From: Candidatus Effluviviaceae Genus I sp.
GTDB lineage: Bacteria; Joyebacterota; Joyebacteria; Joyebacterales; Joyebacteraceae
Direction of reading: 5' to 3'
Length of the DNA stretch: 64,000 bases
Assembly: GCA_016867725.1 (NCBI GenBank)
Contig: VGIX01000001.1
Coordinates: 99,575 to 163,574, forward strand
The position numbers were made by a program, and so were the translations under genes. The notes below the pieces were generated by a model, which made no database searches, was not told the DNA's origin, and saw only the letters and a list, made by a program, of their open reading frames with translations. Position 1 is the first letter of the stretch. The number at the start of each line of letters is the position of its first letter. Of this stretch, positions 54,720 through 62,788 are shown in pieces.

Positions 54720-56726
54720 CTACTTCAGAAGCGCCATCTTCGTCGTGCGCGTCTCGCCGGCCCCCGAGAGCCGCGCGAAGTACACGCCGGACGCCAGCGC
54801 GCGACCGCCGTCGTCCGTCCCGTCCCACGCGATCGCGTGCGGCCCGGCGGCAAGATCACCGTCCACGAGCGTGCGCACCGCGCGGCCGTTCACGTTGTGC
54901 ACGGCCAGCGTCACGCGGCCCGCGTCGGCCGGCACGGTGAAGGCCAGCGTCGTCGTCGGGTTGAACGGGTTCGGGAAGTTCTGCCTGAGCGCGAGCGTCG
55001 TGACCGGCGGCGTCTCGGGCACGCCGGTCGGGATCGGCCCGAACCAGTGCAGGATGCGGTTCATGAGCGTCCGCTGGTTGTTCGGGTCGGCCGCGGCCGT
55101 CTTCACGCACTCGAACGGGAACGACGTGAACACGACGCGGTGGCCGCGGCCCGCGGCCTTCAGCGCCTTGATGCCGTTCGCGGCCGTGAAGATGCCGTCG
55201 GCGGACGCGTTGAGTTCAACGCTCTCGCTCCCCGACACCGAGAACGGCCCGCCGGTGATCCCGAGGGACATCCCGTCGGAGATCGGATCCCCAGCCACGC
55301 CCGTCATAATGAAGCCGCCCGTGTTGTTCGACCACGAGGCGATGTGCAGGTAGTCGCTGGTGAAGGTCGTCGCCCCGGTGCGGCTGCTCAGATACCCCAT
55401 GCTCGAGAGGAACAGGTTCCCGCCGCCGTCCAGGTACGCGGCCATCGCGGCTTCGTTTGCCGCGTTGATGGCCGACCCGTCGGTGTTGGCGGTCGTCCAG
55501 AAGACCGCCCAGAAGTCGTTCAGGAGGAGCTGCAGCGGTCTCCCCTTCGCGCTCGCGTCCCACACGAGCGGCGTGTACCCGTTGTCGAGGACGGCCTGCC
55601 TGAGGTGGCTCTCGTACGAGGCACCTCCGTCGTCGTCCACGATGAGGATGGACGGGAGGTCCACGAACACGCCGAACGACGCGCTGGCCGTCTTCAAAGC
55701 GTTGGTTCTACTCGTCGCCGTCAGCGTCGCGGTCCCGAGCCCCCGCACGGTGCCGATGAAGTCCGAGATCTCCACGGAGAACCGCTTCTCCTCGCCTGCC
55801 TCGAAGTGGTAGGTCTGCGCCGTGATCCAGCACACGTCGTCCGGATCACACGCGATCGCGAGCCACTCGTATGGGCCGACCTCAGGCGGGAAGACCGACG
55901 AGAGGCTGACCCTGATCGAGTCGGCCACGGTGCCGGTGTTCTTGATCTTCGCGAAGAACTTCCTGCTCTCGAGGTATCCCATCTCCGCGGCGTACGATTC
56001 GGGCGACATGCCCACGCCGTACGGCTCGCGCATGCACTGCGCGTTCACGATGAGCCGCGGCGACTCGACCTTCTCGATGAACGCCGCAATCCACACGTTC
56101 GCGTGGTTCCACGACGAACTCAGGACAAGGCTACGGTAGACGGTCACCGAGTCGCCGACGGCCGAGAGCGTCACGTTCTCCGTCGGCAGCATCTTGCGCA
56201 CCGTCCATGGGTAGTCCGTCCCGATGTTCTCGTACACGACGAACTGGGCGCGGAGCGGACCGAGAGTGTGAGGTTCGACGGCCTTGAACGTGGCCTCGAT
56301 CCACGTCGTCCCGGGGTCGTCCACCACGAGGCCCTTCGTCCTCATGACGATCGGCGTCGAAGCTGCCTTTCGGGCCGCGTAAATGGGTTCGTAGGTATCG
56401 CGCACGGTCGAACCCGCTCCGATGACCTCGACCACCGAGTCCCAGTCGACCTCGGGGATGCCGCCCACCCCGTAGTAGGTGGCGCGCGCCTGCGTCTCGG
56501 TCGTGGAGTAGGCGTCGTTCAGGTGGTAGTAGAGGACGACGAGGTTGTCCTTGCCGTAGTCGTTCTGCATTGCCTGGAGCGCCGCACGGGCGTTCGGGCA
56601 GTACCCTCACCACGTGGCCCCGAACAGCTCCGCGAGGACCGCCCGCTCCGCCGGCACGGCCGTCACCGCGCCGCCGAGCAGCAGGGCCGCTGCGAGTCCG
56701 ATCATCGCCGAACGCTTCATCGTCAT
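54720..56726 (-). CDS. Predicted selenoprotein: secreted thioredoxin-fold protein with a UxxC motif (Sec40 encoded by TGA 56607..56609), central domain of unknown function, and a T9SS C-terminal sorting domain
   Basis: ATG 56724..56726 with RBS GGAAGGGAGA. Signal peptide MTMKRSAMIGLAAALLLGGAVTA, then ...AVLAELFGATW-U-GYCPNARAALQAMQNDYGKDNLVVLYYH... read straight through the TGA. The downstream paralog aligns as ...VVLAELLTTRP-C-ANCPNAEAGLHTVLGEYGAGNLCVIAYH..., with a Cys at the TGA position. The C-terminus QNFPNPFNPTTTLAF...LAVHNVNGRAVRTLVDG...AIAWDGTDDGGRALASGVYFARL...TTKMALLK is a T9SS sorting domain. The ORF track called only 54720..56570. Confidence 0.8.
56560..56609 (-). other. In-frame UGA (Sec) codon 56607..56609 and GC-rich region downstream in the mRNA that may hold the SECIS
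   Basis: mRNA: UGA GGGUACUGCCC GAACGCC CGUGC GGCG CUCCAGGC; short GC stems within 40 nt of the UGA. Confidence 0.4.
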
Positions 56727-56813: not shown

Positions 56814-57872
56814 TTATCGTCCTCCAAGTCGCGCAGCCTGCAGGGCTTCCTTGGTCAGGTCGTCCTGCACGAACGCGATCACACTCAGATTGGCCGTGTT
56901 CCACGACGGACTCACGGCGAACGACCGCGTCACGACCGCGGAGTCGCCCACGGACGCAACGCTCAGCGGCTCGTCGTCGAGGAGGTCGCGCGCGACGAAG
57001 TCGTACACGCTCGACGCCACGACGACGTGGTCCTCGATGACGACGACCCTGAGCACGGCCTCGGTCGTCGTGAGCGCCTCGCGGACCTTCACGGTCACCG
57101 TCACGCTGCCCGACGCCGCGCTCCCCGCCATCCGCATCGAGACCGGCGAGCCGAAGGTCCTCCGGTGGTCGATCTCCATGCGGTAGGCCGCGGCCGCGGT
57201 GGACGGCGACCCGGCGCCCTGGACGATGCGCGCGACGTCCCCGTCGAAGATCACCGCGGGCCATGTGTTCCACGAAGGCCCCATGTACCAGTCGATCCTC
57301 GCATTCGTCTCGGGCGTCCCGAGCGGGTCGGCCGGCGGGAGAAGATCGTGATACGCGATCACGCACAGGTTGCCCGCGCCGTACTCGCCGAGCACCGTGT
57401 GGAGGCCGGCCTCGGCGTTCGGGCAGTTGGCGCACGGGCGCGTCGTGAGAAGCTCCGCCAGCACGACGCGCGGGACGAGCCCGCCCGCCGGCCCGACCGC
57501 GAACGAGCACGCGGCCGGCGTCGGGTCAAGGTCGCCGTCGTTGTCCAGGGCGGCGACCTCGAACAGGTAGTCTCCCTCGGCGACCGCCGGCAGCACGAGC
57601 TCTGTGGCCGTCGTCTCCCCGGTCAGCGTGTCGTTGAGGGACCAGACGTACTTCACCACCGCCCCGTCGGGGTCGCTGCCGCTCCATGCGATGAGCGCGT
57701 CCGCGCCCGCCACGACCGCGCCAGGCGCCGGGCACGCCTCCATGACCGTCTCCGGGAGGAGGTTCACCTCGGCCGGGGAGTGGAACCAGTCGCAGCCGGC
57801 GGCAAGCGCCAGCGCCGCGAGCGCGGCCGCGCCCGCCCGACCCCACCACCGTCCGGTCCGCGTCCTCGCCAC
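56814..57872 (-). CDS. Lipoprotein with thioredoxin-fold CxxC domain; Cys-containing paralog of the selenoprotein N-terminal domain
   Basis: GTG 57870..57872 with RBS GGAGGGGG. Lipobox LALAAGC; ...RPCANCPNAEAG... The C-terminal region ...SPSWNTANLSVIAFVQDD... parallels ...SSSWNHANVWIAAFIEKV... in the selenoprotein. The Arg-rich N-terminal extension of the ORF-track call is rejected. Confidence 0.7.
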   Translation of the reverse strand: MARTRTGRWWGRAGAAALAALALAAGCDWFHSPAEVNLLPETVMEACPAPGAVVAGADALIAWSGSDPDGAVVKYVWSLNDTLTGETTATELVLPAVAEGDYLFEVAALDNDGDLDPTPAACSFAVGPAGGLVPRVVLAELLTTRPCANCPNAEAGLHTVLGEYGAGNLCVIAYHDLLPPADPLGTPETNARIDWYMGPSWNTWPAVIFDGDVARIVQGAGSPSTAAAAYRMEIDHRRTFGSPVSMRMAGSAASGSVTVTVKVREALTTTEAVLRVVVIEDHVVVASSVYDFVARDLLDDEPLSVASVGDSAVVTRSFAVSPSWNTANLSVIAFVQDDLTKEALQAARLGGR

Positions 57873-57880
57873 GCCCCCTC

Positions 57881-59356
57881 CTAGAAGTACGCGCTCAGCC
57901 GAACGCGCACGCCCTCGAACTCCGGCTCGAACCAGCAGACGCCGCCGGCGCACTTCTTCCCGCCACGCTGCGTGCCCGCGCCGAACAGCACCTCGACGTC
58001 GTCGGAGAGCCGCTTCTTGAGCTCCGCCGAGAACCACGCCTCGCGCTCCTCGAAGTCGGCCGTGCTCCGCTCGAACACCGCGGACACGGTGAGGTCGGCG
58101 CGCGCGTACCATGTGAGCGACCCCATGTAGTCGGTGTAGGCGGAGCCGGTGACGTCGTCGGTCGAGCCGATCTCGATGCCGAGCTCGGCCCTCTGCTCGG
58201 CCGGAAGCTCCACGTCGAACTCCGCCGCGCCGATCAGATGCTCCGTGAACTTCCCCAGCAGATACTCGCGGGACCACGACCCCGCCACGGCCCCGCTCAC
58301 CGACGCGGCGAGCGAATGCGAGAGTTCGCCGAAGATCTCCCAGTGCGACAGGTTCCCGGAGTGCGTCCTCGCCTCCGACGCGCCCGCCGTGAGCGAGAGC
58401 GCGTCGCCGACCGGCAGCGTGCCCTCGCCGAGGAACCCGCGCTCGTCATCGAGGCTGATCTCGTACGTGGCCCGGTTCATGAGGGTCCACGGGTGCTCGC
58501 GCACGCACGTCGGCGGGTTGATCAGGTGGTGCGAGAAGAGGTCATAGTCCTTGAACTCGCCGAAGAGCGTGAGCAGCCCGAGGTCGAACGTCCCCGAGAG
58601 GTACAGAGCACGGCCCTCGCCCGCCTCCGCGCCCGTGACCGGGTTCTCGACGTCGCGCCTGGCGTACTCGCCGGACAGGGCGACGCGGCCGAGCCAGAGG
58701 TCCACGGCGCCGTCGAGCACGACGTCCTCACGGCGGGCCTGCGCGGGCGGAAGAACGAGGTTCGCGTCGGCGTCCTCCCACGAGCGCTCCACCGCGCGAG
58801 CGGAGAGCCGCACCCAGTCCCAGGGCGCGGCGGCAGCCTCGAGCCCCCGCACCGTGTGCTCGCGGGTGCGGACCCTCGAGAGCGGCTCGCTCACGACGCC
58901 GGAAACCGCCGTGAACGCGAGCGGCCCCGTCCCATAGCCGATGAGGACGCCATCGAGCGCCGTGTCGTGCTCGAGGTCGGTCTGCTCGTAGCTCCGGAGA
59001 GCGAGCCCCTTCCCGAAGGTGCAGAAGAAGCTGCCCGCGCGGGCCGACAGCGACTCGTTGCGGAACTCGGCGTACCGGTGCCTGACCTCCGAGCGGGGGA
59101 TGTCCTTCTGCGCCGGACTGTAGCCGGGGTCCGAGAGCTGGTACGCGCGATACGTCGCGCCGAGGAGGAACCGTCCGACCTCGATGCCGAACTCAACGCG
59201 CCCGTCGAACACCGAGCCGTCCAGATCGACGTTGTGGAGGTACTCGCCGTCGACCGATCCCCTCACGGTGACGTCGCCCGCGTCGAACGACGACGCGGGG
59301 AGCGCCCAGGCGAGCGAGGCTCCGAGGGCTGCGAGGACGGTCGCGATCCGCTTCAC
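57881..59356 (-). CDS. Outer-membrane beta-barrel protein (porin-like, unknown family) with C-terminal CxxxxC
   Basis: Signal peptide MKRIATVLAALGASLAWA; alternating amphipathic beta-strand pattern; C-terminal ...GGKKCAGGVCWFEPEFEGVRVRLSAYF with a terminal aromatic residue typical of OMPs. Confidence 0.65.
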   Translation of the reverse strand: MKRIATVLAALGASLAWALPASSFDAGDVTVRGSVDGEYLHNVDLDGSVFDGRVEFGIEVGRFLLGATYRAYQLSDPGYSPAQKDIPRSEVRHRYAEFRNESLSARAGSFFCTFGKGLALRSYEQTDLEHDTALDGVLIGYGTGPLAFTAVSGVVSEPLSRVRTREHTVRGLEAAAAPWDWVRLSARAVERSWEDADANLVLPPAQARREDVVLDGAVDLWLGRVALSGEYARRDVENPVTGAEAGEGRALYLSGTFDLGLLTLFGEFKDYDLFSHHLINPPTCVREHPWTLMNRATYEISLDDERGFLGEGTLPVGDALSLTAGASEARTHSGNLSHWEIFGELSHSLAASVSGAVAGSWSREYLLGKFTEHLIGAAEFDVELPAEQRAELGIEIGSTDDVTGSAYTDYMGSLTWYARADLTVSAVFERSTADFEEREAWFSAELKKRLSDDVEVLFGAGTQRGGKKCAGGVCWFEPEFEGVRVRLSAYF

Positions 59357-59359
59357 GCG

Positions 59360-59896
59360 CTACTCCTGCTTGGTCCGCTCGGGGCAGCCCGCCGGGAGGA
59401 GCGAGCGCACCGCCGCGTCGAGCTCGGCGTGGTTCTGCGGCCGGTATCCGGCCGTCGCGTAGACGATCTCCCCCTTCGTGTTGATGAGGACTGTGCGGGG
59501 GACCGCCGACACGTGGAACTTCCGGGCCACGTCCTGCGACGTGTCGAGCACGACGTCGAACGTGTGCCCCTTGGAGGCGATGAGCGCCCCGACGCGCGAG
59601 GCCGACTTCGGGCCGTCGATGGACACCGCGACGACGCGCAGGCCGCAGTCGGCATACTTGTCGAGCACCTGCTGCAGGTCCGGGAAGGCCTTGATGCAGG
59701 GCTTGCACCAGGTCGCCCAGAAGTCGACGACGACCGGCCCGCCCTTCAGAAGCTCCGACAGCGTGAGGGACTTGCCCTCGACGTTCGGCAGCGTGAAGTC
59801 GGGCGCCTTGGTCGGCGTCGCGCCGAAGGCGCACGTCGCCGCCACGAGCAACACGGCGGCCCAGCCGCTTGTGCCTACACCTCGCCTCTTGGTCAT
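59360..59896 (-). CDS. TlpA/ResA-like thiol:disulfide oxidoreductase (thioredoxin fold, membrane-anchored)
   Basis: 178 aa; signal/anchor; FWATWCKPC active site; 3-nt gap to the downstream OMP gene. Confidence 0.85.
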   Translation of the reverse strand: MTKRRGVGTSGWAAVLLVAATCAFGATPTKAPDFTLPNVEGKSLTLSELLKGGPVVVDFWATWCKPCIKAFPDLQQVLDKYADCGLRVVAVSIDGPKSASRVGALIASKGHTFDVVLDTSQDVARKFHVSAVPRTVLINTKGEIVYATAGYRPQNHAELDAAVRSLLPAGCPERTKQE

Positions 59897-59922
59897 GAGT
59901 TCCCCCTGACCTTTCCTAACTG

Positions 59923-59951
59923 ATTATACCACCATGAATAGCGTTGGTCAA
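59923..59951 (-). promoter_or_regulatory. Near-consensus sigma70 promoter for the tlpA, OMP, CxxC-lipoprotein and selenoprotein operon
   Basis: Minus strand, in an AT-rich island: -35 TTGACC (59946..59951), 17-nt spacer, -10 TATAAT (59923..59928), about 20-nt leader with RBS AGGGGGA before ATG 59896. Confidence 0.55.
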
Positions 59952-59974
59952 GGACGCTTCGGGGCGGTGACCGC

Positions 59975-60640
59975 TCAGGGTCCGGCTCCCACGGCGTGCG
60001 CGGGCTCGCATGCGGGCGCTCCGCCCAGGCGGCAGAGGATTCTGTCGAGCGTCTCCTCGATGGCGCCCTCGTCGGAGACGAGATCGACGCCGTCGGTCTC
60101 GAGCGTCAGCACGCTGGTCGCCCGGGCCGCACGCGCGCTCCAGTCGTCGTAGGCGGAGTTCAACGCGTCCAGGTAGCCCGCCGAGATCTCCTTCTCGCAG
60201 TCGCGCCCGCGGCAGCGTATCCGCTCGAACAGGCTGGGCACGTCCGCGCGAAGGTACACGACGAGGTCCGGAACCCTGAGGAAGCTCGTCATCGCGTCGA
60301 AGAGCGCCACGTAGTTGGCGTAATCGCGGTCGGCCATGAAGCCCTGGCGATGCAGTGTCGCCGCGAAGATCTCCTTGTCCTCGTAGATCGTCCTGTCCTG
60401 AATGCACGGCTCGCCGAGCCGGACCATGTCGCGGTGGATCTCGAAGCGCTTCGAGAGGAAGTACACCTGCAGGTGGAAGGCCCAGCGCGTCATGTCGGCG
60501 TAGAAGTCGTCCAGGTACGGATTGTCGATGACAGGCTCGTAGTACGCGCGCCAGCCGAGGCGGTTGGCGAGGAGCGTCGTGAGGTGCGTCTTGCCCACAC
60601 CGATGTTGCCCGCCACGGCAACGAACTGACCGGGTCGCAT
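59975..60640 (-). CDS. Deoxynucleoside kinase (dGK/dCK family)
   Basis: VAVAGNIGVGKTHL P-loop; ERS-like motif region; 221 aa. Confidence 0.75.
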   Translation of the reverse strand: MRPGQFVAVAGNIGVGKTHLTTLLANRLGWRAYYEPVIDNPYLDDFYADMTRWAFHLQVYFLSKRFEIHRDMVRLGEPCIQDRTIYEDKEIFAATLHRQGFMADRDYANYVALFDAMTSFLRVPDLVVYLRADVPSLFERIRCRGRDCEKEISAGYLDALNSAYDDWSARAARATSVLTLETDGVDLVSDEGAIEETLDRILCRLGGAPACEPAHAVGAGP

Positions 60641-60734
60641 GGAGGCGCTCCGGGAACGAGGGCTGCGTCTGTCGGGAGCCTCGCCGTCGAGGCGCCCAGA
60701 ATCTATTCCCGGCGCGCGCCAGTGTCAACGGCTT

Positions 60735-61127
60735 TCACGGGAGGACCGCGACGCGCGTGCCGGGACCGACCACGCTCGCGACAACGACGAGGTCCTCGTT
60801 CCGCAGACGGACGCAGCCGAGCGTGCAGCGCGTGCCGACGGTGTCCGGCTCGTCGGTCCCGTGGATGCCGATGCCGGTCCACGGCGGCGTCGCGAGTCTG
60901 ATGAAGAGGGGGCCGTAGGCGCGCCTGCCGTCGTGCTCCCAGTCGCTCGAGTCCTCGATCGAGACGACCTCGAACTCCCCCTCGGGCGTGCGGCAGTCCC
61001 CCTCGGCCTTCTTGTCCGCGCCGTCGGGGTTCGCGCCGATCGCCGCGGGGAACCTCAGCGTGCCCTCGGCCGTCTCGAGCTCGAGCACGAAGGCCGACTT
61101 CCGCACGACGACCCGCGGCAGCGTCAC
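60735..61127 (-). CDS. L,D-transpeptidase catalytic-domain protein (YkuD family)
   Basis: HGTDEPDTVGTRCTLGCVRL, the conserved His and Cys catalytic motif. Confidence 0.75.
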   Translation of the reverse strand: MTLPRVVVRKSAFVLELETAEGTLRFPAAIGANPDGADKKAEGDCRTPEGEFEVVSIEDSSDWEHDGRRAYGPLFIRLATPPWTGIGIHGTDEPDTVGTRCTLGCVRLRNEDLVVVASVVGPGTRVAVLP

Positions 61128-61198
61128 TGCCCTTTCCTCCCGCCGCCGTCCTTCTCAGCCTCGCTCGCCCGCTCCGCGGGCCTGCACGCGCCTCGCAG

Positions 61199-61294
61199 TC
61201 AGGTGGAGACGCCGAGGCGCGGGAGCACGACGAGCTGCAGGATGAGCCACGCCGCCAGGAAGACCACCGGGAACGCCACGTTCGACCATCTCAC
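61199..61294 (-). CDS. Possible small hydrophobic peptide (31 aa), GTG start
   Basis: GGAGG 8 nt upstream of the GTG; VRWSNVAFPVVFLAAWLILQLVVLPRLGVST; speculative. Confidence 0.2.
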   Translation of the reverse strand: MRWSNVAFPVVFLAAWLILQLVVLPRLGVST

Positions 61295-61323
61295 CGCACG
61301 ACCTCCGCCTGGGGCCGGCACCC

Positions 61324-61347
61324 GGGCGCGCCCGTCGGGGCGCGCCC
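61324..61347. terminator. Tandem self-complementary GC palindrome forming a 10-bp hairpin directly downstream of tlpA2
   Basis: GGGCGCGCCC-gtcg-GGGCGCGCCC, 26 nt after the tlpA2 stop (61373); no U-tract. Confidence 0.4.
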
Positions 61348-61372
61348 GTTCGCCCGGCCGATTGCCTCTCCC

Positions 61373-61978
61373 CTACACCTCCTGCGGCGCGCCCTCGATG
61401 AGCTTCACGACCTCCTCACGGAGCGCATTCCCGATGGCCGGGGTGAACCCCACGTGCTTCGCCGCGATCCTCCCGTCCGGGCCGATCACGAACGTCATGG
61501 GGATCGAGCTGACCTTGTAGGACGCCGCGACGGGCTTGTCTCCGACGAGCACAGGATACGAGACCTTGTTGGCCGCGGCGAAGGGCCTCAGCACGTCGGC
61601 TCCACCGTCGTCGAGTCCGATGCCGACGACCACGAGCCCCCGGTCCCTGAACTCCTCGTACAGCCCGACGAGGAACGGGATCTCCTGGCGACAGGGCGGA
61701 CACCACGTCGCCCACAGGTCCAGCACCACGACCTTGCCCTGGAAGTCGGACAGCGAGACATCCCGCCCGTCGACGTCCTTGAGCGTGAAGGGCGGCGGCG
61801 TCATCCCGACGTCAACGCCGACGGCCGCCGAGCCCGGAACAGCGGACCCGCCGCTCGCCTCGCCTTGCGTTGCTGCATCCGCGCCGGCCGGGGGCGTCTC
61901 CTGCCTTGAGCATCCCGCCGCGGCGAGGACCGCCACCGTGAGCATCCCGACCGCAAGCCACCTCAAGAACTGCGCCAT
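61373..61978 (-). CDS. TlpA-family thiol:disulfide interchange lipoprotein
   Basis: Lipobox LAAAGC; LWATWCPPC active site; 201 aa. Confidence 0.85.
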   Translation of the reverse strand: MAQFLRWLAVGMLTVAVLAAAGCSRQETPPAGADAATQGEASGGSAVPGSAAVGVDVGMTPPPFTLKDVDGRDVSLSDFQGKVVVLDLWATWCPPCRQEIPFLVGLYEEFRDRGLVVVGIGLDDGGADVLRPFAAANKVSYPVLVGDKPVAASYKVSSIPMTFVIGPDGRIAAKHVGFTPAIGNALREEVVKLIEGAPQEV

Positions 61979-62038
61979 GTCACTCCCCCTTCTTTGCTGT
62001 TGCGCCGAGCCCGCCGGCCTCGCAGCCGGCCCTTGCCG

Positions 62039-62371
62039 TCAACCCGCGATCGCGTTGATGCGCTTCTGGATGGTCTCCTTCGGGCCGGCACCGACCATCC
62101 TGTCGACCTCCGCCCCACCCTTGAAGAAGATGAGTGTCGGGATGCCCCGCACGCCGAACCGCTGCGCGAGCCCCGGGTTGTCGTCGACGTTGACCTTTAC
62201 GACCTTCGCCTTGCCCTGGTTCCCCGCCGCGATCTCCTCGAGCACGGGCCCCACCATCCGGCACGGTCCGCACCACGGGGCCCAGAAGTCCGCGACGACC
62301 GGGACCGCCGACGTCGCGACCTCGGCGTCGAACGTCGCCTCGCTCACATCCACGGTCTTCGCTGATCCCAT
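62039..62371 (-). CDS. trxA: Thioredoxin
   Basis: 110 aa; FWAPWCGPC; RBS AAGGGGG; start at the internal Met 62369..62371. The Arg-rich extension of the ORF-track call is rejected. Confidence 0.9.
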   Translation of the reverse strand: MGSAKTVDVSEATFDAEVATSAVPVVADFWAPWCGPCRMVGPVLEEIAAGNQGKAKVVKVNVDDNPGLAQRFGVRGIPTLIFFKGGAEVDRMVGAGPKETIQKRINAIAG

Positions 62372-62373
62372 GT

Positions 62374-62745
62374 TCACACCCCCTTCGCCTTGCGAGCGCC
62401 TCCGAGCGCGGCCGCGACGATCGCGGCCGCCGGACCTTCGTTCAGCCGATAGCACACGAGATGGCCGCGTCGCTCCGCCGAGATGAGCCCCGCGTACCGC
62501 AGCCTCGTCAGGTGCTGTGACACGGACGGCTGCGGAATGCCCAGGAGCTCCTCCATGCGCTTGACGCACAGCTCTCCGTCGCACAGGAGGGAGACGATCC
62601 GAACGCGCACCGGATGCGCCAGGGCCCGGAAGACGGCCGCGGCGTCATCGAGCTCCGCCGCGTTGCCGGGTCCCTCCTCGCCGACCTGTCCGAACCTCTT
62701 CGCCCCGGACCGCACCAGTACGGCTCCTCCCATGCAGGAGAACAT
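62374..62745 (-). CDS. ArsR/SmtB-family transcriptional regulator
   Basis: HPVRVRIVSLL...ELCV...QPSVSQHLTRLRYAGLI winged HTH. The start may instead be Met5 (62733), since the promoter leaves only a very short leader to 62745. Confidence 0.8.
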   Translation of the reverse strand: MFSCMGGAVLVRSGAKRFGQVGEEGPGNAAELDDAAAVFRALAHPVRVRIVSLLCDGELCVKRMEELLGIPQPSVSQHLTRLRYAGLISAERRGHLVCYRLNEGPAAAIVAAALGGARKAKGV

Positions 62746-62759
62746 TCAATAGTGCTGAT

Positions 62760-62788
62760 ATTATACTCATCGAATGCTGAGCTGTCAA
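62760..62788 (-). promoter_or_regulatory. Consensus sigma70 promoter for arsR-trxA
   Basis: Minus strand: -35 TTGACA (62783..62788), exact 17-nt spacer, -10 TATAAT (62760..62765), in a 54-nt AT-rich intergenic island. Confidence 0.6.

What the first reader, a model, noticed from the sequence alone, without database searches (positions are those of the whole stretch)
59360..62788. Dense cluster of five thioredoxin-fold genes with an ArsR-family regulator and consensus promoters in AT-rich islands
Within about 10 kb there are two TlpA-like proteins (WCKPC, WCPPC), TrxA (WCGPC), the CxxC lipoprotein and the UxxC selenoprotein. trxA is translationally adjacent to an ArsR/SmtB regulator, with a 2-nt gap. 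arsR is driven by a textbook TTGACA-17-TATAAT promoter in a 54-nt AT-rich island inside a 70% GC genome. ArsR/SmtB proteins commonly sense metals, metalloids or redox state, so the region looks like a regulated oxidative or metalloid stress module. The deoxynucleoside kinase and L,D-transpeptidase genes lie among these redox genes.
Basis: partly seen in the sequence, partly recalled or inferred. Interest (0 to 1): 0.55.

Follow-up and report, generated by a model that had tools for sequence, protein, structure and literature searches.

The report
Redox-switch thioredoxin operon with hidden selenoprotein
An uncultured Eisenbacteria genome carries a conserved thioredoxin operon that appears to be switched by an ArsR-type repressor sensing oxidation rather than metals, and the operon also hides a small, never-annotated selenium-containing membrane protein.

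Summary
TlpA-like WCKPC and WCPPC, TrxA WCGPC, a CxxC lipoprotein, a UxxC protein, an ArsR gene 2 nt before trxA, and a 12/12 TTGACA-17-TATAAT promoter in the most AT-rich spot of the window are all present.

The gene order DUF2914-arsR-trxA-tlpA2-ykuD-dNK-tlpA1-DUF6029-CxxC is kept in 30/30 Candidatus Eisenbacteria loci. The promoter is kept in 29/29. It is overlapped by a 32-bp pseudo-palindrome (ATKC-N24-GMAT) that occurs once per locus, so it is a likely operator.

ArsR lacks the As(III), alpha3N and alpha5 metal sites. It has two invariant Cys: C60, which aligns with RexT Cys40, and C98 in wing strand beta2. My best reading is a thiol-switch autorepressor with TrxA feedback. This resembles cyanobacterial RexT-TrxA2 in logic, but the protein is not a RexT family member.

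Corrections:
- arsR most likely starts at GTG 62715.
- Only arsR-trxA-tlpA2-(selX)-ykuD sits behind the operator. dNK and tlpA1-DUF6029-CxxC-UxxC have their own conserved promoters.

New: the 245-nt "gap" before ykuD encodes a 56-aa membrane protein with a conserved in-frame UGA. It has a SECIS-like hairpin with covariation and a stop that overlaps the ykuD start. selD (Sec-type) and tRNA-Sec lie on the same contig.

The parts
62783..62788 (-). -35 hexamer TTGACA of the arsR operon promoter
   Evidence: 12/12 consensus match. cTTGACA is conserved in 29/29 Eisenbacteria loci.
62760..62765 (-). -10 hexamer TATAAT of the arsR operon promoter (17-nt spacer). The TSS is inferred near 62753.
62744..62775 (-). 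Candidate ArsR operator. It is a 32-bp pseudo-palindrome, ATTCGATGAGTATAATATCAGCACTATTGAAT (family consensus ATKCnnAcTATATAATATtAnnAnnTTTGMAT, centre AAT|ATT). It overlaps the -10 hexamer and the inferred +1.
   Evidence: Conserved in 29/29 loci. Exactly one site per locus in 296 kb and one in the 64-kb window. Arm positions 3 and 30 covary as T..A or G..C (Fisher p 0.0036).
62374..62715 (-). arsR, ArsR/SmtB-family repressor of 113 aa from GTG 62715 (the ORF is open back to ATG 62745). Invariant C60 and C98 in 123-aa numbering; these are C50 and C88 in the 113-aa protein.
   Evidence: Pfam and NCBIfam hits. The 97%-identical homologue P0001 starts at the GTG. Alignment A1. AF2 model.
62039..62371 (-). 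trxA, cytoplasmic thioredoxin (WCGPC), 2 nt after arsR
   Evidence: TIGR01068 122.6 bits, above its cut-off. Adjacent to arsR in 30/30 loci.
61373..61978 (-). tlpA2, TlpA/ResA-like thiol:disulfide oxidoreductase (WCPPC), a probable lipoprotein (..LAAAGC)
   Evidence: The gap to trxA is 1-135 nt across loci.
61324..61347 (-). Perfect 9-bp GC hairpin (GGGCGCGCC-ccgacg-GGCGCGCCC) between tlpA2 and selX, with no T-run. Role unknown.
   Evidence: Read from the sequence. The gap is 83% GC and has no promoter-like site.
61124..61294 (-). selX (working name), a 56-aa single-pass membrane protein with Sec at codon 32 (TGA 61201-61199) and Cys five residues later (U-x4-C). Its stop overlaps the ykuD start (GTGA).
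   Evidence: TGA is present in 28/29 loci that cover the region. Peptide conservation continues past the TGA and the TGC is invariant. The stop overlaps the ykuD start in 24/25 loci despite tails of 21-43 codons.
61167..61182 (-). SECIS-like hairpin of selX (GGCCCGC-GGA-GCGGGC), with its stem starting 16 nt after the UGA
   Evidence: 93% of cells are paired against 20-46% in slid controls. 4 of 7 pairs show double changes. 0/500 shuffles reach the observed values. The same C-GGA-G apical loop follows the selD UGA.
60735..61127 (-). ykuD, a YkuD (L,D-transpeptidase fold) catalytic domain only, 130 aa, with no signal peptide. It is translationally coupled to selX.
60700..60728 (-). dNK promoter, TTGACA-17-TAGATT, conserved and not AT-rich
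59975..60640 (-). Deoxynucleoside kinase gene, its own transcription unit
59923..59951 (-). tlpA1 promoter, TTGACC-17-TGgTATAAT (extended -10), in the second AT-rich island
   Evidence: No operator motif is present.
59360..59896 (-). tlpA1, a secreted TlpA-like oxidoreductase (WCKPC), translationally coupled to DUF6029
   Evidence: gap -14..+3 nt across loci.
57881..59356 (-). DUF6029 protein gene
56814..57872 (-). CxxC (CANC) lipoprotein. The probable start is GTG 57872, after AGGAGGGGG.
54720..56726 (-). UxxC (UGYC) selenoprotein candidate with Sec codon at 56609-56607 and a FlgD-Ig C-terminal domain

Best explanation
The interval contains three transcription units, not one module.

Unit 1 (about 62753 to 60735) is arsR-trxA-tlpA2-selX-ykuD. 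A near-perfect sigma-70 promoter drives it. The -10 and +1 of that promoter lie inside a 32-bp palindromic operator.

Proposed mechanism:
1. Reduced ArsR dimer sits on the operator and blocks RNA polymerase.
2. Oxidation of its two invariant cysteines releases it. These are C60, in the short beta-bridge just before helix alpha3, and C98, in the middle of wing strand beta2. The oxidised form is most simply a C60-C98 disulfide or S-thiolation.
3. Thioredoxin then rises together with a membrane-anchored TlpA-like reductase, the small Sec-x4-Cys membrane protein SelX, and a cytoplasmic YkuD-fold enzyme whose catalytic Cys is oxidation-sensitive.
4. TrxA re-reduces ArsR and closes a negative feedback loop, as shown for RexT-TrxA2 in Nostoc.

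Units 2 (dNK) and 3 (tlpA1-DUF6029-CxxC-UxxC...) have their own conserved promoters and no operator.

Shown here: the gene content, the conserved synteny, the conserved promoter and palindrome, the Cys pattern, the absence of metal sites, and the recoded UGA with its hairpin.

Inferred: DNA binding, the effector, the disulfide, Trx feedback, and co-transcription through the hairpin after tlpA2.
For: Synteny and transcription units:
- arsR-trxA-tlpA2-ykuD order is kept in 30/30 Eisenbacteria loci at 54-73% ArsR identity.
- Gaps are short: arsR-trxA median 41 nt, trxA-tlpA2 median 49 nt.
- selX abuts tlpA2 in some loci (gap 0-12 nt in L005 and L010) and overlaps the ykuD start.
- The tlpA2-selX gap has no promoter-like site and is 83% GC.

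Promoter and operator:
- The promoter and 32-bp palindrome are conserved in 29/29 loci.
- There is one site per locus in 296 kb and the half-sites covary.

The regulator:
- C60 and C98 are invariant in 30/30 sequences, while C55 is not conserved.
- No alpha5, alpha3N or CVC ligands are present.
- In the AF2 model (core pLDDT above 90), residues 59-60 form a beta bridge and residues 96-101 form strand beta2.
- BLASTP aligns our GELC with RexT GEQC, placing C60 on RexT Cys40.
- The RexT paper reports that Cys40/41 pack against beta2 residues 74-77 and that TrxA2 re-reduces RexT (PMC8960804).
- TrxA is a bona fide thioredoxin.
Against: - No coordinates were available, so the C60-C98 distance was not measured.
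- By manual alignment C98 corresponds to RexT Ile76, between the two residues (His75, Asn77) that contact Cys41. Its side chain may therefore face the other side of the sheet.
- The peroxidatic Cys41 of RexT is Val in this protein.
- Among the top 150 family representatives, the CV...CY pair occurs in 28 of 184 domains without clear enrichment.
- Two such distant proteins are not next to trx, so the Cys pair alone does not imply a Trx-linked switch.
- Part of the conserved palindrome is simply the -10 element.
- In some loci the arsR-trxA gap reaches 130-170 nt, so an internal promoter is possible.
- The strong GC hairpin after tlpA2 could terminate transcription.
Confidence: 0.5

Rival explanations
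1. ArsR is a metal or metalloid sensor. It would bind As(III), Cd, Cu(I) or Hg through C60, C98 and perhaps the invariant His95, and thioredoxin would be induced as part of metal detoxification.
For: - The protein belongs to the ArsR/SmtB family, and the generic NCBIfam metalloregulator model is passed.
- The closest solved structure by sequence and by fold is a mycobacterial SmtB.
- C60 sits at the position of Cys32 of the R773 ArsR ELCVC motif (my own alignment from memory of that sequence).
- His95 is invariant.
Against: - Only one Cys of the CVCxxC As(III) site is present.
- There are no alpha5 D/H/H/E ligands: ours reads NEGPAAAIVAAALGG where 8qkf has DHHLAHIVVDAIAHA.
- There are no conserved N-terminal Cys for an alpha3N site.
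- No efflux pump, arsenate reductase, metallothionein or P-type ATPase is present in any of the 30 loci.
Confidence: 0.12
2. ArsR is a persulfide, polysulfide or selenium sensor of the BigR/SqrR kind. Its two cysteines would be bridged by sulfur (tri- or tetrasulfide) or selenium (selenotrisulfide) rather than forming a plain disulfide, tying the operon to reactive sulfur or selenium metabolism.
For: - BigR and SqrR are the next closest solved relatives (E 2e-13 and 9e-11).
- BigR is the best specific NCBIfam model.
- The operon contains a selenoprotein gene, and the organism has selD and tRNA-Sec.
- An Aquicultor ArsR with the same Cys pair sits next to DsrE-like and TauE genes.
Against: - The BigR model scores 64.6 bits against a cut-off of 155.
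- The BigR/SqrR cysteines (alpha2 and alpha5) are not conserved here.
- No sqr, pdo or rhodanese gene is present in the loci.
Confidence: 0.15
3. ArsR has no effector. It would be a plain negative autoregulator that damps a very strong promoter to keep thioredoxin output constant, like effector-less family members such as NolR or PagR. The conserved cysteines would be structural.
For: - The autoregulatory layout, with the repressor as first gene behind its own operator, gives homeostasis by itself.
- The Cys pair occurs in unrelated contexts.
Against: - Both Cys are invariant in 30/30 sequences at 52-97% overall identity, while neighbouring residues vary.
- Pairing of a Cys-bearing repressor with the cell's disulfide reductase has an experimentally established precedent (PMC8960804).
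Confidence: 0.15
4. selX is not a selenoprotein. The 31-codon ORF would end at the TGA, and the conserved downstream sequence would be an RNA element (attenuator or stabiliser) that controls ykuD.
For: - No Cys-containing homologue was found among 5.8 billion proteins; the only hit is a 31-aa truncated call.
- The MFE of the region is no better than shuffles (z -0.65).
- There is no Rfam match.
Against: - The frame stays open for 21-43 codons and ends in an ATGA/GTGA or TGATG/TAATG overlap with the ykuD start in 24/25 loci.
- The Cys codon five positions after the TGA is invariant, and there are no indels between TGA and TGC.
- The hairpin position and G-rich apical loop fit bacterial SECIS rules and match the hairpin after the selD UGA.
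- tRNA-Sec and Sec-type selD are on the same contig.
Confidence: 0.15

Closest known systems
RexT-TrxA2 of Nostoc (Anabaena) sp. PCC 7120 (PMC8960804)
   Same: - It is an ArsR/SmtB-fold repressor encoded next to a thioredoxin gene.
- It has no metal site.
- A cysteine at the start of alpha3 packs against wing strand beta2.
- Its palindromic operator has ATTCG-type half-sites (RexT: ATTCG-N15-CGAAT).
- Proposed logic is the same: oxidation releases the repressor and thioredoxin resets it.
   Different: - Sequence relationship is very weak (phmmer E 0.024 to 7txm).
- Our C60 aligns with RexT Cys40, but the essential Cys41 is Val.
- The second Cys is in beta2, not vicinal.
- The outer operator arms are 24 nt apart, not 17.
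- Genes are co-directional in one operon that also carries tlpA, selX and ykuD.
- The lineage is Eisenbacteria, whereas 102 of 105 RexT-like Trx-linked proteins are cyanobacterial.
BigR (Xylella) and SqrR (Rhodobacter) persulfide-sensing ArsR proteins
   Same: - They are the closest functionally characterised relatives by sequence and fold.
- They are two-Cys, metal-free thiol sensors.
   Different: - Their sensing cysteines are in alpha2 and alpha5, and neither is conserved here.
- The NCBIfam BigR model scores far below its cut-off.
- No sulfide-oxidation genes are nearby.
Metal-sensing SmtB/CzrA and As(III)-sensing R773 ArsR
   Same: They share the winged-helix fold (TM 0.8-0.9 on the target) and the ELCV segment.
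   Different: The alpha5 ligands, the alpha3N ligands and the second and third Cys of CVCxxC are absent.
Periplasmic reducing systems that protect the catalytic Cys of L,D-transpeptidases (E. coli DsbG/DsbC with LdtB; recalled from the literature, not checked here)
   Same: A YkuD-fold enzyme with a single essential Cys is genetically tied to thiol reductases.
   Different: - This YkuD protein has no signal peptide, so it is presumably cytoplasmic.
- Its only hint of a specific family is a very weak ElsL match.
- The partners are Trx, TlpA and a selenoprotein, not DsbG.
Bacterial redox selenoproteins with Sec/Cys pairs (thioredoxin-like UxxC, Prx-like, AhpD-like; NCBIfam exception models such as WAxxUGC)
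   Same: - SelX has a conserved in-frame UGA close to a Cys.
- It has a downstream hairpin at SECIS distance.
- It sits among thiol oxidoreductase genes.
   Different: - SelX is a 56-aa single-pass membrane peptide with U-x4-C.
- It has no Pfam or NCBIfam match.
- No Cys-form homologue was detectable.

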